Shown here: one piece after another, positions 39,563-64,000 of the stretch | Position numbering within the stretch: the first letter of the stretch is position 1 | Layout: every line of letters begins with the position of its first letter | Source: an uncultured Acidobacteriota bacterium | GTDB taxonomy: Bacteria > Acidobacteriota > Vicinamibacteria > Fen-336 | DNA: 64,000 nt | NCBI GenBank assembly: GCA_963818355.1 | Contig: CAWFSB010000040.1 | Location: 86,649 to 150,648 of the forward strand | Direction of reading: 5' to 3' | The notes under the pieces: model-generated | Told to the model about the DNA's origin: nothing | Databases searched by the model: none | Seen by the model: only the letters and a program-made list of their open reading frames with translations | Program-made: the position numbers and the translations under genes

Positions 39563-42500
39563 ATGTCCATTCGATTGAACACGGCTGCGGGACTGCTCGC
39601 GGCCCTCGGCACGGGGCTCCTGCCCTCTGCCGCCACGGCCCAGACGAAGCTCCTCCGCTTCCCCGACATCGCCGGCGAGCGCGTCGCGTTCTGCTACGCG
39701 GGCGACGTCTGGACGGCGCCCGCGAAGGGCGGCAACGCCACCCGGCTGACCGCCCACCCGGGCCTCGAGCTCTTCCCGAAGTTCTCGCCGGACGGGAAGT
39801 GGCTCGCCTTCACCGGCCAATACGAGGGTGACGAGCAGGTCTACGTGATGCCGGCGGAGGGGGGCCAGCCGAAGCAGCTCACCTACTACCCCGCCCGCGG
39901 CCCCTTCCCGCCGCGCGGCGGCTACGACAACCAGGTCATGGGCTGGACGCCCGACGGCACGGCCATTCTCTTCCGCTCGCAGCGCGACGCCGACGGCGTC
40001 CGCTCGGAGGGCCAGCTCTTCACCGTCCCGGCGAAGGGCGGCCTCGCGAAGCCGCTCCCGATGCCCACCTCGGGCGCGGGCGACTTCTCGCCCGACGGGA
40101 AGCGGATCGCCTACTCGCCCCTCTTCCGCGACTTCCGCACCTGGAAGCGCTACGAGGGCGGCTGGGCGCAGGACCTCTGGGTCTACGACCTCGCCACGAA
40201 CGACGCCAAGGCCTTCGCCACCAGCAAGCGCACCGAGCGCGACCCCATGTGGATCGGCGACGGGATCTACTTCGCCTCCGACCGCGACGGCACGCTCAAC
40301 CTCTACTCCTGGGACCCGAAGACCGACGCGGTCGCGAAGCTCACGAGCAGCACCACGTGGGACGTCCGCTGGCCGTCGTCCGACAACGCGTCCCGCATCG
40401 TCTACGAGCTGAACGGCGAGCTGCGCGTCTACGACATCCGCGCGAAGGCCGACCAGGCGATCCCGATCTTCGTCCCGAGCGACGGCGTCGCGGTGCGCCC
40501 CTCGCGGGTGAGCGTCGAGAGAAACGTCGAAGGCTTCGAGCTCAGCCCGAAGGGCGAGCGGGCGCTCTTCGTGGCCCGCGGCGACGTCTTCACCCTCCCC
40601 ATCGAGAAGGGCCCAACGCGCAACCTGACCGCGACCTCCGGCGTCCACGACAAGCACGCCCGCTGGTCCCCCGACGGCAAGCGGATCGCGTTCGTCTCGG
40701 ACGCGTCGGGCGAGGACGAGATCTGGCTCGTGGACCAGGCGGGCGGGAAGCCGGAGCCGCTGACCAAGGGGCGACAGGGCATGACCTACGCCCCGGAGTG
40801 GTCGGCCGAGGGGACGCACATCGCCTTCTCGCACAAGGACGGCGGGCTCTTCGTCGTCACCCTCGCCGACCGGAAGGTGGTCGAGGTCGCCCGCGACGAG
40901 CGCGGCACCATCCGCGACTACGCCTGGTCGCCGAAGGGCGCGTACCTCGCCTTCTCGAAGGGCGACCCCGACGACTCGCGGTCGATCCACGTCTGGAGCG
41001 CCACCGACGGCACGCTCCACCGGGTCACGGACGAGCTCTTCAACGAGGAGTCCCCCGCGTGGGACCTCGACGGCGAGCACCTCTTCTATCTCTCCGACCG
41101 CGACTTCGCCCCCCAGATCAGCACCTTCGAGTGGAACTTCGCGACGAACCGCACGACCGGCATCTACGCCGTCACCCTGAAGAAGGACGGCAAGAGCCCG
41201 TTCCCGCCGCAGTCGGACGAGGTGACCTTCGAGGAGAAGAAGGCGGAGGGCGAGGCGAAGAAGCCAGCGGCGGACGATGGCAAGGCCGACGACCCGAAGG
41301 CCGACGCCGAAGGACAAGCCCGCGAAGAAGGAGACGCCGTTCCGCATCGACTTCGAGGGCCTCGGCTCCCGCGTCAGCCGCGTGCCGATCGAGGGCGACA
41401 ACATTGGCGGGCTCGCCGTGGGCAAGGGGCACCTGCTCTACACCGTGACCGGCGCGCCCTTCTACGGCCGCGACTCGTACGTGAAGCCCGCGCTCAAGCT
41501 CTACTCCTTCAAGGACCGCAAGGAATCCACCCTGGCCGAGAACGCGACCGGCTGGGCGCTCTCCCGCGACGGGGCCAAGGTCCTCGTGCGGCAGGAGGAC
41601 AAGTTCAACCTCTACGACGTCAAGCCAGAGGCCAAGGACAAGAAGGCGGTCGCGACGAAGGGCCTGATGGTGGACCGCGTCCCCGCCGAGGAGTGGCGGC
41701 AGTTCTTCGACGAGGCCTGGCGGCGCTACCGCGACTTCTTCTACGCCCCGAACATGCACGGCTACGACTGGAAGGCGATCGGCGACCGCTACCGCGCCCT
41801 GCTGCCCCACGTGGCCCACCGCGCCGACCTCAACTACCTCCTCGGGGAGATGGTGGCCGAGCTCAACGTCGGCCACACCTACATCCAGGGCGGCGACTAC
41901 GAGATTCCGTCCCGTCCGAAGGTCGCGCTCCCCGGCGCACGCTTCGAGCTCGACGCCGCGTCCGGCCGTTTCCGCATCGCGCGCATCCTCCAGGGCCACA
42001 ACCAGGAGGACCTCTACCGGGCCCCGCTCACCGAGGTGGGCGTCGACGCCCGGGTGGGCGACTACGTCCTCGAGATCGACGGTGTCGCGCTCGAGCGGCG
42101 ACGACGACCCCTACCGCCTCCTCCGGCACAAGACCGACCCGGTGACCCTGACCCTCAACGCGAAGCCGGTTCTCGAGGGCGCCCGCAAGACGACCTACCG
42201 GCCCATCACGAGCGAGGAGCCGCTCCTCTACCTCGAGTGGACGAGCGCCAACCGCGAGAAGGTGGCGAAGCTCACGAACGGCCGCGCCGGCTACCTGCAC
42301 GTCCCGGACATGGGCGCGCCCGGCATCTACGAGTTCGTCAAGTGGTTCTACCCGCAGATCCGCAAGGAGGGGCTCGTCGTGGACGTGCGCTCGAACGGCG
42401 GGGGCAACGTCTCGCAGTGGATCATCGAGCGGCTGGACACGAAGCTGCTCGGCACGCGCTTTGGCCGGCGGGAGCACCCGGGGACGTACCCGGGGACGGT

Positions 42501-42885
42501 CTTCCACGGCCACAAGATCGCGATCCTCAACGAGACGTCGGCGTCGGACGGCGACATCTTCCCGCACATGTTCCGCAAGGCCGGGCTCGGCCCGCTGGTC
42601 GGCAAGCGCAGCTGGGGCGGCGTCGTCGGGATCGGCGGCCAGGGGCCGATGATCGACGGCGGCAGCGTGACCGTGCCCTCGAGCGGCACCAACGACGTGG
42701 ACGGCCGGTGGATCATCGAGGGCCAGGGCGTCGAGCCGGACATCGTGGTGGAGAACGACCCGAAGTCGGTGATCGCCGGGCGCGACCCCCAGCTCGAGCG
42801 GGCGGTCGCGGAGCTCGTCAAGAAGATGGACGCCGAGCCGATGACGCTGCCGAAGCGGCCGGCGGACCCGGTGAAGACGCAGTGA
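39563..42885 (+). CDS. tricorn protease homolog (S41B; beta-propellers + PDZ + S41 catalytic domain) (frame breaks near 41308 and 42090)
   Basis: ORF 39563..42145 reads [23 protein letters not shown].. and has FSPDGK-type blades. It continues in ORF 41277..44060 ([36 protein letters not shown]) and then in ORF 42082..42885 ([36 protein letters not shown]). Confidence 0.85.
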
Positions 42886-51100: not shown

Positions 51101-54100
51101 GTCGACATCGTGCGGCCGGGCGACGGCTTCGGACGCGACCCGGACGGGGCGTTCCGGCTCCGGCCGGACAGCCGCGAGGATCACGCGGCGCTCCTGCGCG
51201 AGGTGGGCGCGGCCGGACGGACTCCCTCCCAGATCGTCCACCTCTGGGGGGTGAACGAGGACGACGGCCTCGACTCGGCGCTCGAGCGAGGCTTCTTCCC
51301 CCTGGTCCGGCTCGGCCAGGCCCTCCTCGACGAGGAGCCCGCGGGCCGCGTCGAGATCGTGGTCGTGACGAGCGGCGCGGAGGGCGCGGGACGCGACGCT
51401 GCGCCACGCTTCCCCGCCAAGGCGCTCGTGCAGGGCCCGGCGAGCGTTCTCCCACGCGAGCTGCCGTTCGTCTCCTGCCGCTCGGTCGACCTGTCCTCTT
51501 CGCTGGCTCCCACGGCGGCCTTCGCACGGCAGCTCGCCGCCGAGCTGGAGGCGGAGACGGACGAGGGCCGCGTGGCCATCCGCGACGGCGAGCGGCTGGT
51601 CGAGGCCTACGAGCGTTGGCCTCTCGCGGAGGCCACCGTGCCGTGGCGCGAGCAGGGCGTCGTGCTGATCACGGGCGGGCTGGGCGGCCTGTCCCTCGCG
51701 CTCGCCGAGCGCCTCGCGCGCGAGGCGAAGGCCCGCTTCGTCCTCGTCGGCCGCACGGGGCCCGATCCCAGCGACCCCGACGATGCTCGGAGCCGGGCCA
51801 TCCGCGCGATCGAGGCGGCGGGAGGCGAGGTCCTCGTCGTCACGGGAGACGTCGCCGAACCGGCCACCCTGAGGCGCGCCGTGGCGGAGGGCGAGGCGCG
51901 CTTCGGCGCGATCCACGCCGCCGTCCACGCCGCCGGCGTGATCGACGACGGCCCTCTCCACGGGAAGGAGCGCGGGGGCCTCGAGGCCGTGCTGCGACCG
52001 AAGGTGCACGGCGCTCTCGCGCTCGTCGAGGCGCTTCGCGGCCGGAAGCTCGACGCTCTCGTCTTCTTCTCGTCCACGAGCGTGGCCCTCGCCCCCGCCG
52101 GCCAGGTGGACTACGTCGCCGCGAACGCGTTCCTGAACGCCTACGCCCGCCGGCTGGCCGCGGAGGGATGGCCCGCGCGCGTGGTGCAGTGGGGGGCCTG
52201 GCGCGACGTGGGGATGGCCGTGGCGGCGCTGCTGCCCGTCCGCGTGCCGCCGGGGTGCCTGCCGGTCGAGCATCCCCTCCTCCAGCGACGCCTCGAGAGG
52301 GACGGCGAGACCGTCTTTCCCGCCGTCCTCGACGCGAAGCAGCAGTGGGTCCTCGACGAGCACCGCCTCCGCGGCGGCGACCCCGTCCTGCCCGGGACCG
52401 CGTTCGTCGAGATGGCGCGGGCCGCCCTGGCCGCCTCCGCTCCGGCGGACGGCGCGATCGAGATCTCCAACCTGGCGTTCACGGCCCCACTGGTCGTGCC
52501 CGAGGGCGAACCGCGCCTGGTCGAGACGGAGCTGCGCCCCGCGGAGGATGGCTCGGTGGCGATCTCCATCCGAAGCGTGCCGGCCCGCGGGCCGGCCGTC
52601 GAGCACGCGGCGGGCCGTGTGCGCGCGCTCGACGGCTGGGCTCCGGGCACGATCGACGTCGCGAGCCTCGAGGCCCGGTGCACGCTCGGCCGCCAGAGCT
52701 TCGGCCCCGGCGAGCAGAGCCTGCCGCAGGAGCAGGCGCTGGCCTTCGGGCCCCGATGGAAGGCGGTCCGCCGCATGGCCTTCGGCTCGGCGGAGGCGGT
52801 GGCGCACCTCGAGCTGCCGGAGACGCTCGCCGGGGACCTCGAGACGTACGGCCTTCACCCCGGCCTCCTCGACATGGCCACGGGCTTCGCGTTCTCCCTC
52901 GTCGAGGGCGGTGCCACCCTGCACGCGCCGCTGTCGTACGGCCGGCTGCGCGCGGCACAGCACCTGCCCCGCCGGGTCGTCAGCCACGTGCGCCTGCGCC
53001 CCGGGTCCGGCCCGGGAGTCGGCGTCCTCGACGCGACGCTCGCGGACGAGCAGGGTCGGGTGGTGGCCGAGATCGAAGGCTACGTGGTGAAGGCGGTCGA
53101 GCCCGGCGTCCTCGGCCACCGCGCGGAGCCGCGCCCACCGTCGCCGCTCGAGCGCTGGGTCGAGCACGGGATCACCCCCGACGAGGGCTTCGACCTCTTC
53201 CGTCGCGTCCTCGCCCAGGACCGCGAGGTGCAGGTCCTCGTCTCCCCTCTCGATCTTCACTCGATGATCGCGGAGCTGCGCCCGAAGCCACCGGTCACGA
53301 GCCCGGCCCAGCCTGCGACCCCGGCGACCGCATCTCCCGAGGGGGCCGGGACCGCACCCCGCGACGAGATCGAGGCGAAGCTCGCGGCGATGTGGCGCGA
53401 CCTGCTCGGCGTCGAGCAGGTGGGTCTCCACGACGGCTTCTTCGCCCTCGGCGGCCACTCGCTCGTCGCGGTGCGGCTCTTCGCCCGGGTCAAGAAGACG
53501 TGGGGCGTGGACCTGCCGCTCGCCACGCTGTTCGCGGCGCCGACGCTCGAGGCCCTGGCCGCGAGGGTGCGTGAGCCCCTCGGCCTGACCCTCGACACGT
53601 CGAGCCCCGGGGCCGTCGAGCCCGGCTCGCCGCCCGCGAAGACCGGCTGGTCGCCTCTCGTCCTGATCCGCAAGGGAGGCTCGCGGCTGCCGTTCTTCTG
53701 CGTGCACGGCGCCGGCGGGAACCTGCTCGTCTTCCGGGACCTCGCGGAGAGGCTCGGGCCCGAGCAGCCCGTCTACGGCCTCGAGGCCCGCGGCGTCGAC
53801 GGCCACCTCCCGCCCGCGGCGAGCATCGAGGAGATGGCGGAGATCGTATCTCGAGGCGATCCGCGGCGTGCGGCCTCGCGGCCCGTACCTCCTCGGCGGC
53901 TACTCCGGGGGCGGTGTCGTGGCCCTCGAGATGGCCCGGAGGCTGACGGCGGCGGGAGAGCGCGTCAGCCGAGGTCGTGCTCCTCGACACCTTCCACCCC
54001 GCGACCGAGGCGCACAGGACCGCCCTGCGCGATCACCTGAGCGGCCTGGCGGCCGAAGGCATCGCCGTATCTGCCCCGGCGGGCGCGCGCGACGCGCGGC

Positions 54101-54455
54101 CCGGCACCTCTCCAGACTGCCGCAGGAGCTGCGCCTGCGGTACTACCTGAGCCGCGGCCGGCCGCTGCCCCACGACCTGCGCGACGCGCACCTCACCCGG
54201 CACTTCCTCGAGGTCTCGCGCCGCCACGTGCCCGGCCCCTACGGGGGCCGGGTGACGCTCTTCCGAGCCCGCGAGATGGACCGTGTCTACGCGCACATGG
54301 GACCGCGCCTCGGCTGGGAGCCGGTGCTCCTGCTCCCCGTCTCGAGGTTGTCGAAGTGCCCGGGAAACCACGATACTATCGTCCGCGAACCCAACGTCGG
54401 CGTCCTCGCCTCCCTCCTCGAGGATCTCCTACTCCGTGCTTCGTCCGGGAGCTAG
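48161..54455 (+). CDS. type I polyketide synthase, KS-AT-KR-DH-ACP-TE (several frame breaks in the TE region, 53850-54370)
   Basis: ORF 48161..54040. KS: TACSTS (Cys 48791), ECHGTGT, NIGHLDTAAG. AT: GHSLGE (Ser 50126). KR: ITGGLGGLS (~51670) and YVAANAFL. DH: HRLRGGDPVLPG (His 52361). ACP: LGGHSL (Ser 53459). TE: FFCVHGAGGN, GGYSGGG (Ser 53904, ORF 53868..54455) and PGNHDTIV. Confidence 0.9.
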
Positions 54456-54470
54456 AGCCTCGGGCAGGAG

Positions 54471-57400
54471 GTGAGTCCATTGGCGGTCCACTCGTGGGTC
54501 CTCGTCGGCGAAGGGACGCTCCTCGCCGGCTGCGGCGACATCCTCCTGGGACTCGGCCAGCGCGTCGCGGCGGTCGTCACGGCGCGAGCCGACGATCGAG
54601 CGCTGGGCCTCGGAGAAGGGGATCCCCGACCCACCGCTCCGACTCGGGACCTCGCCTCCGTCCTGCGGGGCCTCGACTTCGACCACCTCGCGAGCATCGC
54701 GCATCTCTCGATGATCCCGGCGGAGGCGCTGGGCCTGGTGCGCGGCCTCGCCGTCAACTTCCACGACGGGCCCCTGCCCCGCTACGCGGGGCTCAACGTC
54801 ACGAGCTGGGCGATCCTCGGCCGCGAGACCACGCACGGCGTCACGTGGCACGAGATGACGGCGCGGCCCGACGCGGGACGGCTTCTGGAGCAGCGCATCT
54901 TCGACGTGGCTCCCGACGAGACGGCCTTCTCGCTCAACGCGAAGTGCTACGCGGCCGGGCTCGAGTCCTTCACGGACCTGGCGCGCCGCGTCGCCGCGGG
55001 AGATACCGGCGGTCGCGAGCAGGACCTCGCCGGGCGGAGCTACTTCGGCCGCCACGATCGGCCGGCGGCGGCCGCGGTGATCGACTGGCAGGCGGCGGCC
55101 GACGAGATCGCCGCCCTCGCGCGCGCCCTCGACTTCGGGCCGCACCCGAACCCCCTCGCGCTGCCGAAGGTTCTCCTGGGAGACGGCTTCGTCTTCGTCG
55201 GCCGCGCCGATGTGACCGACGGGCCCTCGGGCCTGCCGCCGGGAACGGTGGCGGCCGTCCTGCCGAATGGCCTGCAGGTCGCCACTCGCACGGCGGACAT
55301 CCGTGCTGGGCGAGTTCCGCGAGCCCGACGGCGCCGCGGTCACGGTCGCCGAGGCCGCGCGACGGCACGGCCTCGTCCCCGGGAAGACGCTGCCGCCCCT
55401 CACCGCGGCGATGGCCGCGCGGCTGACCGAGCTCTCGGCCGGGGCGGCGCGATCCGAGGCGGCCTGGCGAGCGACGCTCTCGAGCCTCGCGTTCCCGGAC
55501 CTCGATCTCCCGGCGGATACGGGTGACGGACGCTCGGCGCTCGCCGGGCGCACGCTCGAGCCGGCCCTCCTCGAGCGCCTCCCGCGAACCGGGCGGGTCG
55601 ACGCGCTCGTGGCGGCGATCGCCGTCCTCACCGCCCGCCGGTCCGGGACGTCGTCGTTCGACATCGCGTATGGCGACGACCGACTGTCCTCGCACGTCGA
55701 GGGCACCCACGGGACCTTCCCCGCCGCCCTGCCGCTGCGCGTGACGCTCGATCGCACCGCGCCGTTTGCGGCCGCGGTGGCGGCCGTAAGGGCGGCGCGC
55801 GAGGAGCTCCAGCGGCGTGGCCCCCACGCCGCCGACCTCTGGGCCCGCGACCCCGCGCTACAGGAGGCCGCTCGAGTGGGCGGCCTCCGGGCGGCGACCG
55901 TGTCGGTCGGCGTCGGCGTGGAGCCGCCCGCGGGACGGATCCGCATCGCGCTGGCTGTCGACGGCTCGGACTGCCGCGCTGCTCGGCGACAGCACGGTGG
56001 AGGCTCTCACCGCCCAGCTCGAGGCGGTGATCGCCGGCGTCTGCGACGCGCCGGAGCGACCTCTCGCCGAAATCGATCTCGTCACCCCGGAGGAGCGGGA
56101 TCGGCTCCTGGGGACCTGCAACGATACGGCCCGCCCCGTCCCCGAGGCCTGCATCCACGCGCTCTTCTCCGAGCAGGCGAGGCTCACGCCGGACGCCACC
56201 GCCCTCGTCTTCCGCGGCCGCCGGATGAGCTACCGCGAGCTCGACGAGCGGACGAACCGCCTCGGGCGCCACCTGCGCGGCCTCGGGGTCGCGCCCGGGA
56301 CCCTCGTCGGCATCCTCCTCCACCGCTCCTTCGCGATGGTGGAGGCCGTCCTCGGCACGCTCAAGGCCGGCGGGCGCCTACGTGCCCCTCGACCCCACCT
56401 ACCCGGCCGAGCGCATCGACTTCATGGCCCGCGACGCCGGCCTGGGGCTCGTCCTGACCGAGGAGAGCCTCCGCTCCCGGGTCCCGGCGGGCACGGGACG
56501 GGTCGTGGCTCTCGACACGGAGCCCGGCGAGATCGCGCGCGGCGTCGGCCGAGCCGCTCGAGGGCGGAGCCTCTCCCTCGGACCTCGCCTACGTCATCTA
56601 CACCTCGGGCTCGACCGGCCGGCCGAAGGGCGTGATGGTCGAGCACCGCAACGTCGCGAACTTCGCGGTCGGGATGGACGAGCACCTCGACCGGTCCGAT
56701 CCGAAGACCTGGCTCGCCGTCACCAGCCTGAGCTTCGACATCTCGGTGCTCGAGCTGCTCTGGACGCTCGCGCGAGGCTTCACGGTCGTGCTGCACCGCG
56801 ACGAGGAGCGCGAGTCCTTCGTGGCCGCCGCTGCCCCGCGACGCCCGGTGGACTTCAGCCTCTTCTACTTCTCGAGCGACGCGTCCGAGCACGAGCAGGG
56901 GAAGTACCGCCTGCTCCTCGAGGGCGCGCGCTTCGCCGACCGCAACGGCTTCGTCGCGGTCTGGACCCCCGAGCGCCACTTCCACGCGTTCGGCGGGCTC
57001 TACCCGAACCCCGCCGTCACCGGCGCCGCCGTGGCCGCGATCACCGAGAGGGTCGGGATCCGCGCCGGAAGCCTCGTCAGCCCGCTGCACTCGTCGCTGC
57101 GGATCGCCGAGGAGTGGTCGGTGGTCGACAACCTCTCGAACGGCCGCGTCGGGATCTCCTTCGCCGCGGGCTGGCAGCCGAACGACTTCGTCCTCCGCCC
57201 CGAGTCCTTCGCCGCGCGCAAGCAGGTCATGCTCGACCAGATCGAGGAGGTGCGCCGCCTCTGGCGCGGCGAGGCCGTGTCGTGCGCCAACGGCGCCGGC
57301 GAGACGGTCGAGGTGCGGACCCTCCCGCGGCCCGTCCAGCCGGAGCTTCCGGTCTGGGTCACGATCGCGGGCAACCCCGAGACCTTCGTGGCCGCGGCGC

Positions 57401-59116
57401 GATCGGGGGCCCACGTCCTCACCCACCTCCTGGGACAGAGCGTCGAAGAGGTTGCGGAGAAGGTGGCTCTCTACCGCCGCGCCTGGCAAGAGGCGGGACA
57501 CCGCGGGTCGGGGACGGTCAGCCTGATGGTCCACGCCTTCGTGGGAGACACGGACGAGGCGGTGAAGGACGTCGTCCGCGGCCCCATGAAGGACTACCTG
57601 CGCAGCGCGGTCGGCCTCGTGCGCGAGGCGGCCTGGTCGTTCCCCACGTTCAAGGAGAAGGCCACGAGCGCGAGCGGGGAGTTCGACCCCGACAGCCTGT
57701 CTCCCGAGGAGATGGACGCGCTCCTGGAGCACGCCTTCGAGCGCTACTTCGCGACGAGCGGGCTCTTCGGCAGCCCCGACACCTGCCGCCGCTTCGTCGA
57801 ACGGCTGGGTGGGATCGGCGTCGACGAGGTGGCCTGCCTCGTGGACTTCGGCGTGCCCAGCGACACCGTGCTCGCCCACCTGCCGCGCCTCGCCGAAGTG
57901 GCGCGGACGTTCGGGAGAGACACCGTTCCCGCGCGCCCTCCGGAGCGCGCCGAGGCCGAGACGATCCCGGCGCTCGTCGAGGCCCACGGCGTCACGCACT
58001 TCCAGTGCACGCCGACGATGGCCCAGATCCTGCTCCAGGACGAGCCCTCGCGGCGCGCGCTCGGGCGCCTGCGCCAGATGCTCGTCGGCGGCGAAGCCCT
58101 GCCGGACCGCCTCGCGCACGAGCTGGCCGGCCTCGTGGGCGGCGTGGTGACCAACGTCTACGGGCCCACGGAGACGACCGTCTGGTCCTCCGTGGCCCGC
58201 GTGCCCCGGGACGGCTCGCCGGTGACCATCGGGTTCCCGATCGCCAACACGAGCCTGCACGTCCTCGACCGCGACGGCCGGCTCGCGCCGGTCGGCCTCG
58301 CCGGCGAGCTGCACATCGGCGGGAGCGGCGTCGTCCGGGGCTACTGGAACCGCCCGGACCTCACCGCCGAGCGCTTCGTGCCGAACCCCTTCGGCGAGGG
58401 CCGCCTCTACCGCACGGGCGACCTCGTGCGCCGTCGCGAGGACGGCGCGCTCGAGTTCCTCGGGCGGCTCGACCACCAGGTGAAGGTCCGCGGCCACCGG
58501 ATCGAGCTCGGGGAGATCGAGGCCCGCCTGGCGGAGCACCCCGGGGTGCGGGAGGCGGTCGTGGTCGCGCGCGACGACGGGGCCGGGGCCGACCTCGTGG
58601 GCTATGTCGTCCCGCGCAACGGCGCGCTCGGCCGAGACGGACCTGCGCGAGCACCTGCGCGCCCGCCTGCCGGAGCACATGATCCCCCGCGCGTTCGTCA
58701 CGCTCTCGGCCCTGCCGATGACGCCAAACCGCAAGATCGACCGCAAGGCGCTCCCCGCGCCCCACCGACATCCCGTCGTCGTCGCCCCCGCGGCGCGACC
58801 GGAGGGGGCTCTCGAGGAGACGATCGCCGCGGTCTGGCGCGAGGTGCTCGAGCTCCCGGACGTGGGGGTCGACACGAACTTCGCCGATCTCGGCGGCCAC
58901 TCGCTGGCGATGGTCCAGGTCCTCGGCAGGCTGAGGGAGCGCGTGGACGCCTCGGTCACCCTCGTGGACCTCTTCCGCCACACCACGATCCGAGCGCTCG
59001 CGCGCTTCCTGGCCGCGAGCGGCAACGAGGACGCGGCCCTGGAGACGAGCGCCTCGCGCGCCACTGCCAGGCGCAACGCCCTCCAGGCTCGCACCCTGAG
59101 GTCACGTCGATCGTGA
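54471..59116 (+). CDS. NRPS 1: formyltransferase domain - C-domain-like remnant - A domain with embedded luciferase-like monooxygenase - PCP (frame breaks near 55300, 55975, 56375, 56540, 58630)
   Basis: F domain: ORF 54471..55526 (SIAHLSMIP..AVNFHDGPLPRYAG..GVTWHEM, His 54762). C-lobe-like region: ORF 55267.. (VDALVAAIAVLTARRSG..FDIAYG..FPAALPLRV). A domain: LTPDATALVF, KAGGAYVPLD, YTSGSTGRPKG (~56599), FDISVLE, then the LLM at 56848-57900 (VDFSLFYFSS..RFADRNGFVAVWTPERHF..), then NVYGPTETT, GELHIGG, YRTGDL, VKVRGHRIELGEIE and PNRKIDRK. PCP: LGGHSL (Ser 58901). Confidence 0.85.
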
Positions 59117-62100
59117 AGACGAGCGGGCCAGGCACGATCACCACGATTGGCGATCGATTCCGGGCAGTGTCGTCTCAGCGCGCGCAGCATCCCGCCCTGG
59201 TCTGGGCTGATGGCAGCCTGACCTACGGAGAGCTCGATCAGCGGTCGACCGCGCTCGCCGGGAGCCTGCAAGCGCTGGGTGTTCGGCCCGGTGATCGGGT
59301 CGGGCTGCACATGACGCGCTCGCCGGAACTGATGCTCGCGATTCTCGCCACGGTCCGCATCGGCGCCGTGTACGTGCCTCTGGAGCCGACCTACCCGGCC
59401 GAGCGCCTGGGATGGATGATGCAGGATGCCGACCTGAGCCTGCTGCTGACTCAGGGGGGATTGCCGCTACTCGCCTCCGTGCCCTGCCCGGCGCGCGACA
59501 TTGCCGACACCCCGGACGGACGGATGACCGGCGTTTCCGTGACTCCGTCAGCGCCGGTCTATGTCATGTACACGTCGGGCTCGACCGGCACCCCCAAGGG
59601 CGTCGTGGTGCCACAGCGCGGCATCCTGCGGCTGGTGTGCGATGTCGACTACGTGCAACTGGATCGCAATACCCGCATCCTGCAGCTGGCGCCCAACTCG
59701 TTCGACGCCGCGACGTTCGAGGTCTGGGGCGCATGGTTGAACGGCGGCACCCTGGTTCTGGCCCCTCCCGGGATTCCCGACCTCGTCACCCTCGGACGCT
59801 TGATCGCGGACGAGCGGATCAACACGATGTGGCTGACGGCATCGCTCTTCAACGTCGTCGTGGACGAGTCGGTCTGGATCCTCCGGCCATTGAGCCAGCT
59901 TCTCACCGGTGGCGAAGCGTTGTCACTCCCGCACGCAGGGCGGGCGATGGCGGCACTGCCCGGCCTCAGGCTCATCAACGGGTACGGCCCCACCGAGAAC
60001 ACCACGTTCACCACCTGCTACACCGTTCCATCGGACATCGACGGGGCTCTACCGTATTCCCCCCTGGGCTACCCGATTCGCGACACCGTCGTGCGCGTGC
60101 TCGACGAGACGTTGCGGCCAGTCCCGTCCGGGGAGGTCGGCGAGCTGTGCCTCGGGGGCGCCGGCGTGGCCCTGGGCTACCTCAACCGGCCGGAACTGAC
60201 CGCCGAGCGCTTCGTTCCCGACCCCGAAGCCCCGGGGACCCTCCTGTATCGCAGCGGAGACCTGGGCCGGCGTCAGCCGGACGGCTTCGTCGAGTTCCAC
60301 GGCCGCCGAGACCAGCAGGTGAAGGTGCGCGGCTATCGCGTCGAGCCGGGCGAAATCGAGGCAGCTCTGGCGCGTATCGAAGGCGTGCGCCAGGCCGTCG
60401 TCGTGCCGCACTCTTCCCCGGGCGGCGATGTGTCGCTGGTGGCGTTCGTCGTCGGCCACGGCGGAGGCGGCGACCCGCATCACCTCCGCGCCCGTCTCGC
60501 CGAGCAACTGCCGGCGTGGATGATCCCGACGCGGTTCGTGCTGCTCGGCGCCCTGCCCCTGAACGCCAATGGCAAGGCCGATCGTCAGCAGCTGCTGGCC
60601 AGCGTCTCCATGTTGGGCGGCCCTCCCCGGCGTGAACTGGCGGACGCGCTCGAGGCCCGGGTACTCGAGATCTACCGAGGGGCGCTCCACGTACCGGATT
60701 GCCAACCCGACGACCGCTTCGTCGATCTCGGCGGGCAGTCGATCCAGGCACTGATGATCGCCAGCCGCCTTGAGCGTGAGTACGGCCGCCGGATTCCGCT
60801 CTGCTGGGTCTACGACTACGGCTCGCCGGCAGCCCTGGCCACGGCATTGCGTGACCGCCCGCCCGAACCCGACCCCATCATGCCGGCGCCGCCGGTCATC
60901 GAACCCACGCCCGGGTTGTCCTTCCCGCAGGAGCGCGTGTGGTTCCTGCAGCAGCGTTACCCGGACTGCCGCGCCTACCACTTCCAGGCGACCTTGGAGT
61001 TCACCGGCGCGCTGGACGTCTCGGCCCTGGAACGGGCGCTGAGCGAGATCGTCCGCCGCCACGCCATCTTGCGCTCGGGGTTCCCGCTCGGTCGCCAGGG
61101 TCCCGAGATGGCCCCGCGTGAGCCGGAACCCGTCGTCCTCGCTCCGCTACGGACAGACGACGTGCCAACACTCTTGGCCGAGGAGTTCCTCGCGCCGATG
61201 GACGTCGTCCACGGCCCGCTCGTCCGCTGGCGACTGCTCCGGCTCGGGCCCGACCGTCACCTGCTCGTGCAGACCGAGCACCACCTGGTGCACGACGGCT
61301 GGTCGTTCAACCTCCTGCTCGACGAGATGCAGGGACTCTACCGCGCTTCCCGGGAGGGCCGGCCCTCGGCCCTTCCCCCGGCGCCCGACTTCGCCGCGGT
61401 GATGAGCGCCTGCCGGGCGCGTTACGAGCGGCGGCGGGGCGAGGACGAGCGCTGGTGGAGGCAGCACCTCGACGGCTGCGCGCCCGCGATGTCGCTGCCC
61501 TGGGATCACGCGCCCTCCGGTCGGGAGTCGTTCGAGGGCCTTACGGTGCGCCTGCCACTGTCGCGGCGCCTGATCGACGCGCACCGGGATCTGGCCCGAG
61601 CGCTCGGCACCACACCCTTCGTGACCCTGCTGAGCGCCTTCCTGATCCTGCTGCACCGCCACAGCGGGCAGCACGACCTGTGTATCGGCAGCGGCGTCGC
61701 CAACCGCACCGACCCGGAGGTCGAGCGCCTGCCCGGCATGCTCGTCAACACCCTGCTGCTGCGTTTCGACCTCGCCGGCGACCCCAGCGTGGCCGAGCTC
61801 GCGCAGCGCGTGCACCGCACGACGTTGGCAGCCTGGGATCACCAGGGCATGCCGTTCGACCGCGTCGTGTCGCTCCTGCGTGAGGACGGCCCGATCGGCG
61901 ATTGGTCGTCGCCGGAGGTGATGTTCAGCGTCCACAACTCGCCTTCCACGCCGATCGATTGGCCCGGCTTGAAGGTCCGCGTGACCGAGGGCCTGAGCTA
62001 CGGCACGGCCAAGGTGCCGCTGAACGTCGTCCTGTTGCCGGCGCATCCCGATCCGGAGGCCCCGGACGATCCGGACGCGCCGGCAATGACGCTGATCTGG

Positions 62101-63294
62101 GAACACTGCACCGCGCGCTTCACCGAACGCACCATGCACGCCTGGCGCGGCGAATACCTCGACCTGCTCGAGCGGCTGCCCCGGTCGGCAGCAGGGCCGA
62201 TCTCGGAGCTCGCGGGCGCCACGGCGAGCCCCCCGGTAGCGACGGCCTCGGCCGCTCCTCCGCCGACGGGAAGCTCGAAGCGGCCTCCACCGTCGGATGA
62301 CCCGCGCGGCGAGTACATCCGCAGCGAGCTGTCCCGCATCTGGGCGGCGTGGTTCGAACGACCGGTTGGCCCCGATGAGCGCTTCTTCGATCTCGGCGGC
62401 CATTCGTTGCTGGCCGTGCGCCTGGTGGTCCGCATCCGCGAGGCGTTCGGGGTCGAGGTGCCGCTGGGGACGTTCTTCGACAACCCTACGATTGGCGGGT
62501 TGGCGGCCACGATTGCCCTCTCGGGCGATGGCGGTGCGCGCGGGCTGTGGCGCAACGTCGCCCCGGGACCACCCATTGCGCCCCTTTGGGCAGTGCCCGG
62601 CGCTCATGCTCGCGAGGAGCATTGGTACGTCCACGCCGCGATCGCCCGGACGTTTCGAAGGAAGCGCCCGGTCCACGTCTTGTACCCGCCACATTCCCGG
62701 AAGCAGCCCGACGTCGAGACCATCGCGTCAGAAGCCGTGGACGCTTTGCGCGACGTCCAGCCGCAGGGCCCCTACGACCTCGTCGGCGACTGCCTCGGTG
62801 GAGTGCTCGCCTTCGAGATCGCCCGCCAGCTGACGGCCCGCGGGTGCACGGTCGGGCGGCTCGTGCTTCTGGATTCCCTGTATCCTGCACGTCGGCCGGG
62901 CTCGAGGCTCGCGCAGGCGGCGAGGGGCTCGACGCGGGCGCGCCGGCTGTGGCTCAGGTGCCTGGCGGGCGGCCACCGGCTGGCGGCGCTGAAGGCGCGA
63001 CTGGACGGACGTGGCGCCACCGCTGGTCGGGAGCACCTGGACCTCGCGCGGCACCTGGTCCCGCCGAGGTACAGCGAGAAGTACACACTCGAGCTCGCCC
63101 GCTACCGCCTTCGGCCCTGGGATGGGGCTCTGGACTACGTCGTCAGCGAGAGTCTCGCCGGGCGCCTCCCTCAGCAGGCCTGGGAGCCTCACGTGGCCGC
63201 GGTCCGCGTGCACCGGGCCGCGGGAGACCACGTCACCTACCTTCGCTCGCGCCTGGAGGACAACCGCGAGCTCCTTCGGTCGTTGCTGGAGTAG
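59113..63294 (+). CDS. NRPS 2: A - PCP - C - PCP - TE (TE nucleophile motif GDCLGG)
   Basis: GTG 59113 overlaps the NRPS-1 stop (GTGA). The gene is uninterrupted in the frame of ORF 56632..63294. A: YTSGSTGTPKG, FDAATFE, NGYGPTENT, YRSGDL, VKVRGYRVEPGEIE. PCP1: LGGQSI (Ser 60739). C: HHLVHDG (61279..61299). PCP2: LGGHSL (Ser 62404). TE: GDCLGG (Cys 62791) and GDH near the C-terminus. Confidence 0.9.
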   Translation: MKTSGPGTITTIGDRFRAVSSQRAQHPALVWADGSLTYGELDQRSTALAGSLQALGVRPGDRVGLHMTRSPELMLAILATVRIGAVYVPLEPTYPAERLGWMMQDADLSLLLTQGGLPLLASVPCPARDIADTPDGRMTGVSVTPSAPVYVMYTSGSTGTPKGVVVPQRGILRLVCDVDYVQLDRNTRILQLAPNSFDAATFEVWGAWLNGGTLVLAPPGIPDLVTLGRLIADERINTMWLTASLFNVVVDESVWILRPLSQLLTGGEALSLPHAGRAMAALPGLRLINGYGPTENTTFTTCYTVPSDIDGALPYSPLGYPIRDTVVRVLDETLRPVPSGEVGELCLGGAGVALGYLNRPELTAERFVPDPEAPGTLLYRSGDLGRRQPDGFVEFHGRRDQQVKVRGYRVEPGEIEAALARIEGVRQAVVVPHSSPGGDVSLVAFVVGHGGGGDPHHLRARLAEQLPAWMIPTRFVLLGALPLNANGKADRQQLLASVSMLGGPPRRELADALEARVLEIYRGALHVPDCQPDDRFVDLGGQSIQALMIASRLEREYGRRIPLCWVYDYGSPAALATALRDRPPEPDPIMPAPPVIEPTPGLSFPQERVWFLQQRYPDCRAYHFQATLEFTGALDVSALERALSEIVRRHAILRSGFPLGRQGPEMAPREPEPVVLAPLRTDDVPTLLAEEFLAPMDVVHGPLVRWRLLRLGPDRHLLVQTEHHLVHDGWSFNLLLDEMQGLYRASREGRPSALPPAPDFAAVMSACRARYERRRGEDERWWRQHLDGCAPAMSLPWDHAPSGRESFEGLTVRLPLSRRLIDAHRDLARALGTTPFVTLLSAFLILLHRHSGQHDLCIGSGVANRTDPEVERLPGMLVNTLLLRFDLAGDPSVAELAQRVHRTTLAAWDHQGMPFDRVVSLLREDGPIGDWSSPEVMFSVHNSPSTPIDWPGLKVRVTEGLSYGTAKVPLNVVLLPAHPDPEAPDDPDAPAMTLIWEHCTARFTERTMHAWRGEYLDLLERLPRSAAGPISELAGATASPPVATASAAPPPTGSSKRPPPSDDPRGEYIRSELSRIWAAWFERPVGPDERFFDLGGHSLLAVRLVVRIREAFGVEVPLGTFFDNPTIGGLAATIALSGDGGARGLWRNVAPGPPIAPLWAVPGAHAREEHWYVHAAIARTFRRKRPVHVLYPPHSRKQPDVETIASEAVDALRDVQPQGPYDLVGDCLGGVLAFEIARQLTARGCTVGRLVLLDSLYPARRPGSRLAQAARGSTRARRLWLRCLAGGHRLAALKARLDGRGATAGREHLDLARHLVPPRYSEKYTLELARYRLRPWDGALDYVVSESLAGRLPQQAWEPHVAAVRVHRAAGDHVTYLRSRLEDNRELLRSLLE

Positions 63295-63338
63295 CCGAGA
63301 GGGCTCGGCGCGGTCGCCTCGCGTGGGCGCCCTGCGAT

Positions 63339-64000
63339 ATGCTCGCGGCCCGGGAGATCGCCATGCTCGACATCCGCCGCATCCGGGATCAGTTCCCCAT
63401 CACCCGCCAGCGCTTCCAGGTGCTCGGCCAGACCGAGCCGAAGCCCCTCATCTACATGGACCACGGGGCGAGCACCCATCCGCCCTCACCCGTGCTCGAC
63501 ACCTACAAGGACTTCCTCGAGCACTCCTACGCGAACGTCCACCGGGGACGCCACTACCTCTCGGAGATGGCCACCGACCGCTTCGAGCACGTCTCGGACG
63601 ACATCTTCCGCTTCATCCACGGGAGCCGCTCCGCGAACACGGTGATCCTGTGCGGGAACACCACCCAGGCCCTCGACCTCGCGGCCCACGTCATGGCGCA
63701 CCGCAAGGGCGTCACCCTCGTGTCGCTGATGGAGCACCACTCGAACGACCTGCCCCACCGCGCGCGGGGCCGGGTCGTCCACTTCGGGGTGAAGGACGAC
63801 GGGACCCTCGACTACGACGACCTCGAGGCGAAGCTGCGCGAGCACGAGGTGAAGCTCGTGGCGGTCACGGGCGCCTCGAACGTGACCGGCTACCTCCCGG
63901 ACATCCACCGCATCGCGCGCATGGCCCACGCCCGCGGGGCGAGGATCCTGATCGACGGCGCCCAGATCCTCGCCCACGCGCCGTTCGACGTGCTCCCCGA
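63339..64000 (+). CDS. class-V PLP-dependent aminotransferase / cysteine-desulfurase-like enzyme (5' part, runs off right edge)
   Basis: Not in the track because it has no stop. The start is ATG 63339 or 63363: MLDIRRIRDQFPI..IYMDHGASTHPPSPVLD..YANVHRGRHYLS..CGNTTQALDL..EHHSNDLP..VTGASNVTG. Confidence 0.75.
   Translation, partial: MLAAREIAMLDIRRIRDQFPITRQRFQVLGQTEPKPLIYMDHGASTHPPSPVLDTYKDFLEHSYANVHRGRHYLSEMATDRFEHVSDDIFRFIHGSRSANTVILCGNTTQALDLAAHVMAHRKGVTLVSLMEHHSNDLPHRARGRVVHFGVKDDGTLDYDDLEAKLREHEVKLVAVTGASNVTGYLPDIHRIARMAHARGARILIDGAQILAHAPFDVLP

What the first reader, a model, noticed from the sequence alone, without database searches (positions are those of the whole stretch)
60870..63294. 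Terminal C-T-TE without an A domain, and a thioesterase with Cys in the nucleophile elbow (GDCLGG)
After A-T, NRPS-2 continues with C (HHLVHDG), a second PCP (LGGHSL) and a TE. The TE nucleophile motif is G-D-C-L-G-G (tgc at 62791..62793) rather than GxSxG. Cys-TEs are rare. The cases I know are obafluorin ObiF1 (beta-lactone) and sulfazecin SulM (beta-lactam), both tied to strained-ring release. The second PCP has no cognate A domain, so it must be loaded in trans, possibly by the Gly A domain of NRPS-1.
Basis: partly seen in the sequence, partly recalled or inferred. Interest (0 to 1): 0.6.

Follow-up and report, generated by a model that had tools for sequence, protein, structure and literature searches.

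The report
Cysteine-type thioesterase on an orphan NRPS
This peptide-assembly enzyme really does end in a release domain that uses cysteine instead of serine, after a second carrier with no loader of its own, but the domain lacks the hallmarks of the rare beta-lactone/beta-lactam makers, and its product is unknown.

Summary
NRPS-2 (59113..63294, 1393 aa) is A-T-C-T-TE. TGC at 62791..62793 gives G-D-C-L-G-G, and this Cys aligns with the nucleophile of EntF, ObiF1 and SulM. It is not a sequencing error. An independent assembly about 96-97% identical carries the synonymous TGT, and all six orthologues that cover the site keep Cys.

ObiF1 and SulM place the catalytic Asp after strand beta7 and have Gly at the usual site. 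This TE has the usual Asp (LLDS, Cys+27), as in EntF and in the polymyxin/macolacin Cys-TEs, which are macrolactamising enzymes. Of its 150 best-matching cluster representatives, 114 also carry Cys, so Cys is normal among its relatives.

Loading of T2 by the glycine A domain of NRPS-1 is unsupported. NRPS-2 orthologues occur without NRPS-1. Eighty NRPS-1 loci from many phyla lack NRPS-2, and so does a genome of the same genus. NRPS-2 looks like a mobile accessory gene under purifying selection.

The most likely reading is a self-contained dipeptide synthetase with a Val-like A domain that releases its product through an acyl-S-Cys intermediate. The product is unknown. This is a new member of known kinds, of modest interest.

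The parts
59113..63294 (+). NRPS-2 gene, 1393 aa, A-T1-C-T2-TE. The GTG start overlaps the upstream stop (GTGA).
   Evidence: It has the same length and architecture as orthologues P0005, P0006 and P0007.
59113..60612 (+). Adenylation domain. The specificity residues read D-A-F-W-L-G-G-T-F-K, which is Val-like.
   Evidence: Pfam. The best solved match for the pocket region is PA1221, with the same residues at 278, 299, 301, 322, 330 and 331. The code assignment and PA1221's Val preference come from my memory of GrsA numbering.
60625..60870 (+). Carrier domain T1 (DLGGQSIQA; Ser543 at 60739..60741).
   Evidence: The motif is invariant in 4 orthologues.
60874..62247 (+). Condensation domain with an intact HHLVHDG (61279..61299).
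   Evidence: The nearest solved C domains are Txo1, Txo2 and TycC6, all elongation type.
62248..62304 (+). Part of the Pro/Ala-rich C-T2 linker, where an A domain would normally sit. No A-domain remnant is present.
   Evidence: The linker is variable among orthologues.
62305..62532 (+). Carrier domain T2 (FFDLGGHSLL; Ser1098 at 62404..62406), with no cognate A domain.
62542..63291 (+). Type I thioesterase domain with a Cys1227 (62791..62793) / Asp1254 (62872..62874) / His1373 (63229..63231) triad.
54471..59116 (+). NRPS-1 (formyltransferase, C-lobe remnant, Gly-type A domain split by a luciferase-like monooxygenase, T). It is read in several frames here because of 1-nt indels. It is context for NRPS-2, not an obligate partner.
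   Evidence: The same-genus orthologue is an intact 1536-aa ORF with code D-I-L-Q-L-G-V-V-W-K. The indel at 58626-58630 is absent from L005 and L033.

Best explanation
NRPS-2 is an intact, selection-maintained, stand-alone two-carrier NRPS: A(Val-like)-T1-C-T2-TE. It belongs to a very small orphan family, with three full-length orthologues and four fragments among billions of proteins.

Its TE is an ordinary type I (EntF-like) alpha/beta-hydrolase thioesterase with the acid at the usual position. Its nucleophile is Cys, a trait shared with most of its nearest relatives: largely metagenomic TEs carrying G-[E/D/N/S]-C-x-G-G.

Shown: the architecture; the triad and its alignment; conservation of the Cys, including a synonymous codon change; absence of the ObiF1/SulM hallmarks; independence from NRPS-1 in other genomes; purifying selection.

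Inferred: the A domain activates a branched aliphatic amino acid and charges T1. T2 is charged by the same A domain (most parsimonious, since the protein recurs alone) or by an unidentified enzyme in trans. C makes a dipeptidyl-S-T2. The chain moves by energy-neutral transthioesterification to Cys1227. It is then released by a nitrogen or otherwise poor nucleophile, for example cyclisation to a diketopiperazine or transfer to an acceptor, rather than by water. This is what the characterised Cys-TEs have in common.
For: Architecture and motifs.

Triad alignment to EntF (Ser/Asp/His). Position-I Asp, and no Asp at position II.

Fold: the model (pLDDT 75) is nearest to SkyXY, Pks13, EntF and NocB TEs. 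6N8E and 8W2C are not in the top 50.

Cys conservation. TGT in independent assembly L033.

Size of the Cys group: 114 of the 150 best representatives have Cys, 107 of them with position-I Asp. Only 4 clusters reach E<=1e-30, so the orthologue family is tiny.

Self-sufficiency: P0006 sits alone beside TetR/RND genes. P0007 and P0127 sit beside aryl-polyene-type genes with no NRPS-1. None of 80 NRPS-1 loci has an NRPS-2. The same-genus genome G059 lacks it, as does a 400-genome sample of the phylum.

Functionality: against L005, all indels in NRPS-2 are multiples of 3 and dN/dS is 0.30.

Chemistry of Cys-TEs: PMC13288461, PMC6668435, PMC11298585.
Against: No experiment or read data were available. 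The substrate of T2 is unknown. T1 and T2 share only 19 of 70 residues, which gives no positive sign that one A domain serves both.

In this genome, and in L005 and L033, NRPS-2 lies directly behind NRPS-1: a GTGA overlap here and a 2-nt gap in L005. A functional link here is therefore not excluded. The Val assignment rests on a recalled specificity code plus similarity to PA1221. The release mode is inferred by analogy only. The AU test does not reject a tree that joins this clade with SulM/ObiF1 (p = 0.55), so the phylogeny alone does not separate them.
Confidence: 0.55

Rival explanations
1. ObiF1/SulM-type TE: the Cys-TE closes a strained four-membered ring (beta-lactone or beta-lactam) on release.
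For: It has a catalytic Cys in the nucleophile elbow, which aligns with the ObiF1 and SulM Cys. The AU test does not reject grouping with SulM/ObiF1. The unit on T2 is unknown, so a beta-hydroxy or beta-amino acid cannot be excluded.
Against: The defining features are not met. Asp is at position I, not II. Position I is not Gly. There is no Q-C-N motif. phmmer with this TE does not reach 6N8E or 8W2C at E<=1 but does reach EntF, SkyXY and NocB. SulM TE as query finds ObiF1 and type II TEs instead. Fold search does not list them in the top 50. The quick tree splits them off with 99% SH-aLRT. The only A domain is Val-like. No sulfotransferase or beta-hydroxylase genes were seen beside it.
Confidence: 0.06
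2. Split assembly line with NRPS-1: the Gly A domain of NRPS-1 charges T2 in trans, as AmbB charges T2 of AmbE, giving a Val-Gly-type product or a formyl-Gly-containing peptide.
For: NRPS-1 and NRPS-2 are adjacent and translationally coupled here, and adjacent in L005 and L033. The NRPS-1 A domain reads as Gly-type. The AmbB/AmbE precedent is experimental (PMC4357302).
Against: NRPS-2 orthologues exist without NRPS-1. NRPS-1 is widespread, with at least 563 relatives, and none of the 80 loci fetched has an NRPS-2. Same-genus G059 keeps PKS, NRPS-1, aminotransferase, methyltransferase and PPTase but has no NRPS-2. NRPS-2 has its own composition and history. The F domain marks NRPS-1 as a chain starter, not an acceptor supplier.
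Confidence: 0.13
3. T2 receives a non-standard unit from another enzyme (a stand-alone A or A-T, an acyltransferase shuttle as in SyrB1/SyrC-SyrE, or a polyketide/aryl-polyene carrier). NRPS-2 would then cap or decorate a lipid-like chain with Val, and the Cys-TE would act as a transacylase to an external acceptor.
For: Three independent contexts place the gene next to polyene or polyketide lipid machinery: the KS-AT-KR-DH-ACP-TE PKS here, and aryl-polyene-type genes in L004 and L034. KAS III and a BtrH_N-type protein lie beside P0007. A-less C-T-TE proteins with Cys-TE recur elsewhere: P0144, P0202, P0227. The SyrE precedent is in PMC8949500.
Against: P0006 has no such neighbours within 10 kb. 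No neighbour is shared by all contexts. The C domain is an ordinary elongation type.
Confidence: 0.2
4. Artefact: the Cys codon is an assembly error, or NRPS-2 is a decaying pseudogene, in an assembly that is visibly indel-prone.
For: The assembly has many 1-nt indels that break the PKS TE, NRPS-1 and a tricorn protease. Reads could not be inspected.
Against: The errors seen are indels, not substitutions. The NRPS-2 frame is unbroken over 4.2 kb. L033 has a synonymous Cys codon. Cys is present in all orthologues. dN/dS is 0.30 and the indels against L005 are in frame.
Confidence: 0.01

Closest known systems
MacB-TE / PmxB-TE (macolacin and polymyxin synthetase terminal thioesterases)
   Same: A type I NRPS TE with a Cys/Asp/His triad and the acid 27 residues after the Cys: Cys89/Asp116 there, Cys1227/Asp1254 here. 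The authors report that MacB-TE groups with Ser-type cyclases rather than with ObiF1/SulM (PMC13288461).
   Different: Those sit in a normal C-A-T-TE module of a decapeptide line and macrolactamise through a Dab side chain. This one follows an A-less C-T in a one-A protein that can hold at most a very short chain. I could not compare sequences directly, because no sequence was available.
ObiF1 TE (obafluorin, 6N8E) and SulM TE (sulfazecin, 8W2C)
   Same: A catalytic Cys in the nucleophile elbow, and the two Cys residues align.
   Different: Those have Asp after beta7 and Gly at position I. SulM has Q-C-N, and both resemble type II TEs. This one has Asp at position I and G-D-C-L-G-G. Only a 33-66 aa local alignment is found (20-26 bits).
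AmbE (AMB synthetase, ...A-MT-T1-C-T2-TE) with AmbB
   Same: One A domain, two carrier domains, and a C between them followed by TE. T2 has no A domain of its own (PMC4357302).
   Different: AmbE has an extra N-terminal region and an MT domain, a Ser TE (S1958), and an obligate partner AmbB that charges T2. NRPS-2 orthologues occur with no partner nearby.
SyrE terminal module [C-T-TE] with SyrB1/SyrB2/SyrC
   Same: A terminal C-T-TE lacking an A domain (PMC8949500).
   Different: SyrE is a nine-module line supplied by a dedicated A-T protein and a shuttle acyltransferase. No such genes are conserved around NRPS-2.
HMWP2/HMWP1 of yersiniabactin synthesis (one A domain charging several carrier domains; from my own knowledge)
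   Same: It is a precedent for a single A domain serving more than one T domain, including a terminal Cy-T-TE without an A domain.
   Different: It is a heterocyclising, multi-protein siderophore line. I did not test this comparison here.
EntF TE (3TEJ)
   Same: It is the best sequence match among solved structures. The nucleophile, Asp and His align column for column, and it is among the top structural matches.
   Different: EntF uses Ser and trimerises DHB-Ser. Identity is only about 20-30%.

Membership tests
Type I NRPS/PKS thioesterase domain (PF00975, alpha/beta hydrolase) | Profile match above the curated threshold | tested here: met
   PF00975 scores 67.3 bits against a cut-off of 26.4.
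Type I NRPS/PKS thioesterase domain (PF00975, alpha/beta hydrolase) | Nucleophile elbow G-x-Nu-x-G, an acid on the strand after the elbow helix (position I), and a C-terminal His | tested here: met
   GDCLGG, VLLDS and GDH align with the EntF Ser, Asp and His. The model shows the expected strand/helix order. Fold matches are TE domains.
Cys-type TE with the canonical triad geometry (MacB-TE/PmxB-TE kind) | Cys as nucleophile, conserved among relatives | tested here: met
Cys-type TE with the canonical triad geometry (MacB-TE/PmxB-TE kind) | Acid residue about 27 residues after the Cys (position I), plus His | tested here: met
   Cys1227, Asp1254 and His1373, against Cys89, Asp116 and His218 in PMC13288461.
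Cys-type TE with the canonical triad geometry (MacB-TE/PmxB-TE kind) | Sequence or phylogenetic grouping with MacB/PmxB TE | not tested
   No MacB/PmxB sequence could be obtained. The paper's supplement is not held.
Cys-type TE with the canonical triad geometry (MacB-TE/PmxB-TE kind) | Cys-dependent release by an amine nucleophile | not testable with these tools
   This needs enzyme assays.
ObiF1/SulM-type strained-ring-forming TE | Catalytic Cys | tested here: met
ObiF1/SulM-type strained-ring-forming TE | Catalytic Asp at position II (loop after beta7), with Gly at position I | tested here: not met
   The position-I column holds Asp (LLDS), where SulM has IGGA; in ObiF1 the MAFFT column was misaligned, and (BLASTP) and PMC6668435 (Gly1173) place Gly there. 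The position-II column holds Ser (VVSES), where they have Asp in GSEDP and GGQDP.
ObiF1/SulM-type strained-ring-forming TE | SulM-specific Q-C-N motif and a Dap-activating last A domain | tested here: not met
   The motif is G-D-C-L. The last module has no A domain, and the only A domain is Val-like.
ObiF1/SulM-type strained-ring-forming TE | Groups with ObiF1/SulM and type II TEs in trees and searches | tested here: inconclusive
   The quick ML tree separates them (99% SH-aLRT), and searches do not connect them. However, the AU test does not reject a joint clade (p = 0.55). Long branches are involved.
A-less terminal module charged in trans (SyrE / AmbE kind) | C-T-TE with no A domain between C and T | tested here: met
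A-less terminal module charged in trans (SyrE / AmbE kind) | A conserved partner A or A-T protein (or shuttle) encoded alongside | tested here: not met
   NRPS-1 is adjacent here and in L005 and L033, but absent around P0006, P0007 and P0127. No neighbour is shared across contexts. None of 80 NRPS-1 loci holds an NRPS-2.
A-less terminal module charged in trans (SyrE / AmbE kind) | Demonstrated trans aminoacylation of T2 | not testable with these tools
   This needs loading assays.

The most novel reading that the evidence does not exclude
The A-T-C-T-TE proteins may be a distinct, horizontally mobile class of self-loading mini-synthetases. One Val-type A domain would charge both carriers, and the Cys-TE would keep the dipeptide at thioester energy in order to cyclise it or graft it onto a polyene or polyketide lipid made by neighbouring genes. 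That would explain why the gene turns up as an accessory cassette beside such lipid pathways in unrelated bacteria.
Probability: 0.25. Interest if true: 0.5.

Novelty: new member of a known kind. Interest (0 to 1): 0.3.

Why it matters
Cys-type thioesterases interest enzymologists and people who make cyclic peptides enzymatically. The acyl-S-Cys intermediate allows release by poor nucleophiles: beta-lactone and beta-lactam formation, macrolactam formation, and (from titles cited in PMC13288461, not read here) indole N-acylation.

This case shows that Cys in the elbow alone is a poor predictor of strained-ring chemistry. The position of the acid residue has to be checked as well. It also shows that most of this TE's nearest relatives, largely metagenomic and with no characterised member that I found, carry Cys with ordinary geometry. 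The small A-T-C-T-TE family could be a compact model for asking how an A-less carrier is charged and what Cys contributes on a very short substrate. No product or ecological role is known, so the practical weight is modest.

Tried and rejected
Several things were tried and led nowhere, or were rejected:
- **Raw-read check of the codon.** I used independent assembly L033 and the orthologues instead.
- **Scan of species genomes with TE-specific peptide patterns.** There were 63 pattern matches, none a relative.
- **Profile search of 400 genomes of the same phylum and of the same genus and family.** No orthologue was found, only generic TEs at 79 bits or less.
- **Whole-record search of the L003, L004 and L005 records for other NRPS genes.** The records are not held.
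- **MacB/PmxB TE sequence for a direct comparison.** The supplement is not held.
- **The machine-read structure-based alignment in the SulM supplement.** It was too garbled to use. I recovered the true SulM and ObiF1 TE sequences from the PDB alignment output instead.
- **Phylogeny as a clean separator from ObiF1/SulM.** The quick tree separates them, but the AU test does not reject joining them. I rest the non-membership on the triad geometry and the search results.
- **NCBIfam.** No specific family reached its cut-off other than the generic adenylation domain.
- **A hidden A domain between C and T2.** Rejected: only a short Pro/Ala-rich linker lies there.
- **NRPS-2 as a pseudogene in a frameshifted cluster.** Rejected: the frame is intact, the indels against L005 are in frame, and dN/dS is 0.30.

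Full report
**What is there.** The long ORF 56632..63294 is two genes read in one frame by accident of the high G+C content (73%). Third-position GC tracking shows the true frame leaving at about 58400-58620 and returning at about 59100-59300. NRPS-2 starts at GTG 59113, which overlaps the TGA at 59114..59116 of the upstream frame that carries the NRPS-1 carrier domain. The protein has 1393 aa (P0004).

Pfam gives AMP-binding, PP-binding, Condensation, PP-binding and Thioesterase. Between C and the second carrier lies only a Pro/Ala-rich linker.
- HHLVHDG at 61279..61299.
- LGGHSL with Ser1098 at 62404.
- GDCLGG with TGC at 62791..62793.

The first carrier (DLGGQS, Ser543) is also intact.

**Is the Cys the nucleophile, and is it real?** phmmer against solved structures aligns GPYDLVGDCLGG...LVLLDS...GDH with EntF GPYYLLGYSLGG...LGLLDT...H. 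This is nucleophile to nucleophile, Asp to Asp and His to His. BLASTP against the ObiF1 and SulM TE sequences, recovered from PDB alignments, also aligns the Cys with their catalytic Cys.

- The three full-length orthologues keep Cys: P0005 at 75%, P0006 at 69% and P0007 at 57% identity, all 1393-1406 aa with identical architecture. Their motifs are GSCVGG, GSCIGG and GECIGG.
- Three fragmentary orthologues also keep it.
- L033, a contig from another sample, is 96-97% identical in DNA over window 52384..64000. It reads TGT where the window reads TGC, a synonymous change inside the Cys codon.

The assembly does contain many 1-nt indels. They split the PKS TE, NRPS-1 and a tricorn protease over several frames. 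These are indels, not substitutions, and NRPS-2 has none.

Their catalytic Asp sits after strand beta7 (position II, RifR-like), and Gly occupies the usual site. SulM also has Q-C-N around the Cys. Both resemble type II TEs (PMC6668435, PMC11298585).

In a 97-sequence TE alignment, the NRPS-2 clade has Asp at position I (LLDS) and Ser, Thr or Gln at the position-II column. SulM has Gly at position I and Asp at position II; ObiF1 has Asp at position II, and its position-I Gly rests and PMC6668435, because MAFFT misaligned that column. Three further results agree:
- Searches with this TE reach EntF, SkyXY, NocB, AB3403, Srf, Fen and Pks13 TEs, but not 6N8E or 8W2C at E<=1.
- The SulM TE as query reaches ObiF1 and type II TEs only.
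- A moderate-confidence model (pLDDT 75, pTM 0.69) is closest to SkyXY, Pks13, EntF and NocB TEs. ObiF1 and SulM are absent from the top 50.

A quick ML tree puts SulM+ObiF1 on their own long branch (99% SH-aLRT), and the four orthologues in a 100% clade next to other Cys-TEs. I must add that an AU test does not reject a tree joining the six (p = 0.55). The tree alone therefore does not settle it. The triad geometry does.

**Cys is the norm among its relatives.** An exhaustive profile-free search of 1.84 billion cluster representatives found only 4 clusters at E<=1e-30, all fragments, so the orthologue family is tiny. Of the 150 best representatives, 114 have Cys at the nucleophile position, mostly G-[E/D/N/S]-C-[I/V/L]-G-G. 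Of these, 107 have Asp at position I and a few have Asn or Glu. That matches the remark in PMC13288461 about natural variation at the acid position.

Most of these proteins are plain C-A-T-TE or A-T-TE, nearly all from metagenomes and unnamed. A few are genuine A-less C-T-TE proteins, such as P0144, P0227 and P0202 from Romeriopsis navalis.

Polymyxin PmxB-TE and macolacin MacB-TE are Cys89/Asp116/His218 enzymes that macrolactamise, and papers on indolylamide-forming TEs appear in the reference list of PMC13288461 (I recall those as Cys enzymes but did not check). Cys-TEs are put at about 2% of known TEs. The PKS TE in the same cluster is an ordinary Ser enzyme, GYSGGG.

**Who charges T2?** A-less terminal modules are known:
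- SyrE [C-T-TE] is supplied by SyrB1/SyrC (PMC8949500).
- AmbE (...T1-C-T2-TE) has its T2 charged in trans by AmbB (PMC4357302).

The NRPS-1 A domain does read as Gly-type, D-I-L-Q-L-G-V-V-W-K in the intact same-genus orthologue. The comparative evidence nevertheless speaks against an obligate pairing:
- P0006 lies alone on a 460-kb contig beside TetR and RND efflux genes.
- P0007, and P0127 from a Gammaproteobacteria MAG, lie beside aryl-polyene-type genes with no NRPS-1.
- No neighbour is shared across contexts.
- The monooxygenase-split NRPS-1 module is very widespread, with at least 563 relatives. None of the 80 loci fetched, with 10-kb flanks, holds an NRPS-2 orthologue.
- The same-genus genome G059 (100% complete) has aminotransferase, methyltransferase, PPTase, PKS and an intact 1536-aa NRPS-1, but no NRPS-2 anywhere. 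Its contig does end inside the NRPS-1 C-terminus, so the junction itself is not seen.

**NRPS-2 as an accessory gene.** Against L005, the flanking NRPS-1 is 94-97% identical in DNA and the aminotransferase is 96% identical in protein. Identity drops at the NRPS-2 start codon to 83-95% in A and 71-82% in C-T-TE. dS is 0.54 against 0.13-0.26 in the flanks, dN/dS is 0.30, and every indel is a multiple of three. L005 also carries three extra genes between NRPS-2 and the aminotransferase. NRPS-2 has a lower GC3, 0.86 against 0.94-0.98 for its neighbours.

Together these results point to a functional gene with a separate, deeper history. It appears to have been exchanged or acquired at a variable spot in the cluster.

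**Most likely mechanism.** The A-domain pocket residues read D-A-F-W-L-G-G-T-F-K. The best solved match over this region is PA1221, with identical residues at six of the positions. From memory, this is the Val code and PA1221 prefers Val. The C domain is an ordinary elongation type with an intact HHxxxDG, and is nearest to the Txo1, Txo2 and TycC6 C domains.

I therefore propose these steps:
1. Val-type aminoacyl is loaded on T1.
2. T2 is charged, by the same A domain as the most economical option, or otherwise in trans.
3. C condenses the two units to a dipeptidyl-S-T2.
4. The chain is transferred to Cys1227.
5. The product is released by a nitrogen or other poor nucleophile.

Steps 2 to 5 are inference. 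T1 and T2 share only 19 of 70 residues, so the sequence gives no positive sign of dual loading.

**Verdict.** This is a new member of known kinds: a canonical-geometry Cys-TE and an A-less terminal module. It sits in a small, uncharacterised A-T-C-T-TE family. Interest is modest.

Noticed in passing
window 39563-42885, 53846-56700 and 58626-58630; L033: The assembly is full of single-base indels. A tricorn protease, the PKS TE and NRPS-1 are each split over 2-5 frames. Relatives L005, L033 and G059 disagree with the window at these sites, and G059 has NRPS-1 as one intact 1536-aa ORF. These look like long-read assembly errors rather than pseudogenes.
   Followed up: partly
window 59113-63294 against L005 2267-6448: DNA identity to a closely related strain drops from about 95% to 71-85% exactly at the NRPS-2 start codon. 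dS is 0.54 against 0.13-0.26 in the flanks. L005 has three extra genes after NRPS-2: a 452-aa unknown, a ThDP enzyme and a FemAB-like acyltransferase. The spot between NRPS-1 and the aminotransferase behaves as a variable cassette site.
   Followed up: partly
L029 (G059:C91) against window 48161-66100: The same-genus genome has the order aminotransferase-methyltransferase-PPTase-PKS-NRPS-1. The window has PKS-NRPS-1-NRPS-2-aminotransferase-methyltransferase-PPTase. The cluster has been rearranged within the genus. The G059 PKS also changes frame once, at a different place from the window.
   Followed up: no
L006 4536-12806 (window-equivalent 67787-76057, beyond the window end): A second hybrid line lies downstream: C-A-T-KS-AT..., then ACP plus a class III aminotransferase, then a C domain. 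This resembles a beta-amino fatty-acid-forming arrangement of the iturin/microcystin kind. It is also broken by frame changes.
   Followed up: no
L004 14846-24206 and L034 3660-5694: Two NRPS-2 orthologues, P0007 and P0127 from a Gammaproteobacteria MAG, sit directly beside aryl-polyene-type genes: ApeI-like, ApeP-like, Ketoacyl-synt_2, an acyltransferase, two ACPs, an aromatic ammonia-lyase, LolA-like and MMPL. The link may be functional.
   Followed up: no
proteins P0144, P0202 (Romeriopsis navalis LEGE 11480), P0227, P0173: These are free-standing C-T-TE proteins of about 820-890 aa with a Cys-type TE and no A domain at all. P0173 is C-T-TE-T-TE.
   Followed up: no
window 53868-54455: The TE of the neighbouring PKS uses Ser (GYSGGG). 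The two release domains of this cluster therefore differ in nucleophile.
   Followed up: yes
L035-L114: The monooxygenase-split Gly A domain of NRPS-1 has at least 563 relatives at 51-65% identity. They come from Myxococcota, Chloroflexota, Cyanobacteria, Gemmatimonadota, Planctomycetota, Bacteroidota, Pseudomonadota and Actinomycetota. Only 7 of the 80 fetched loci have any C domain within 10 kb.
   Followed up: partly
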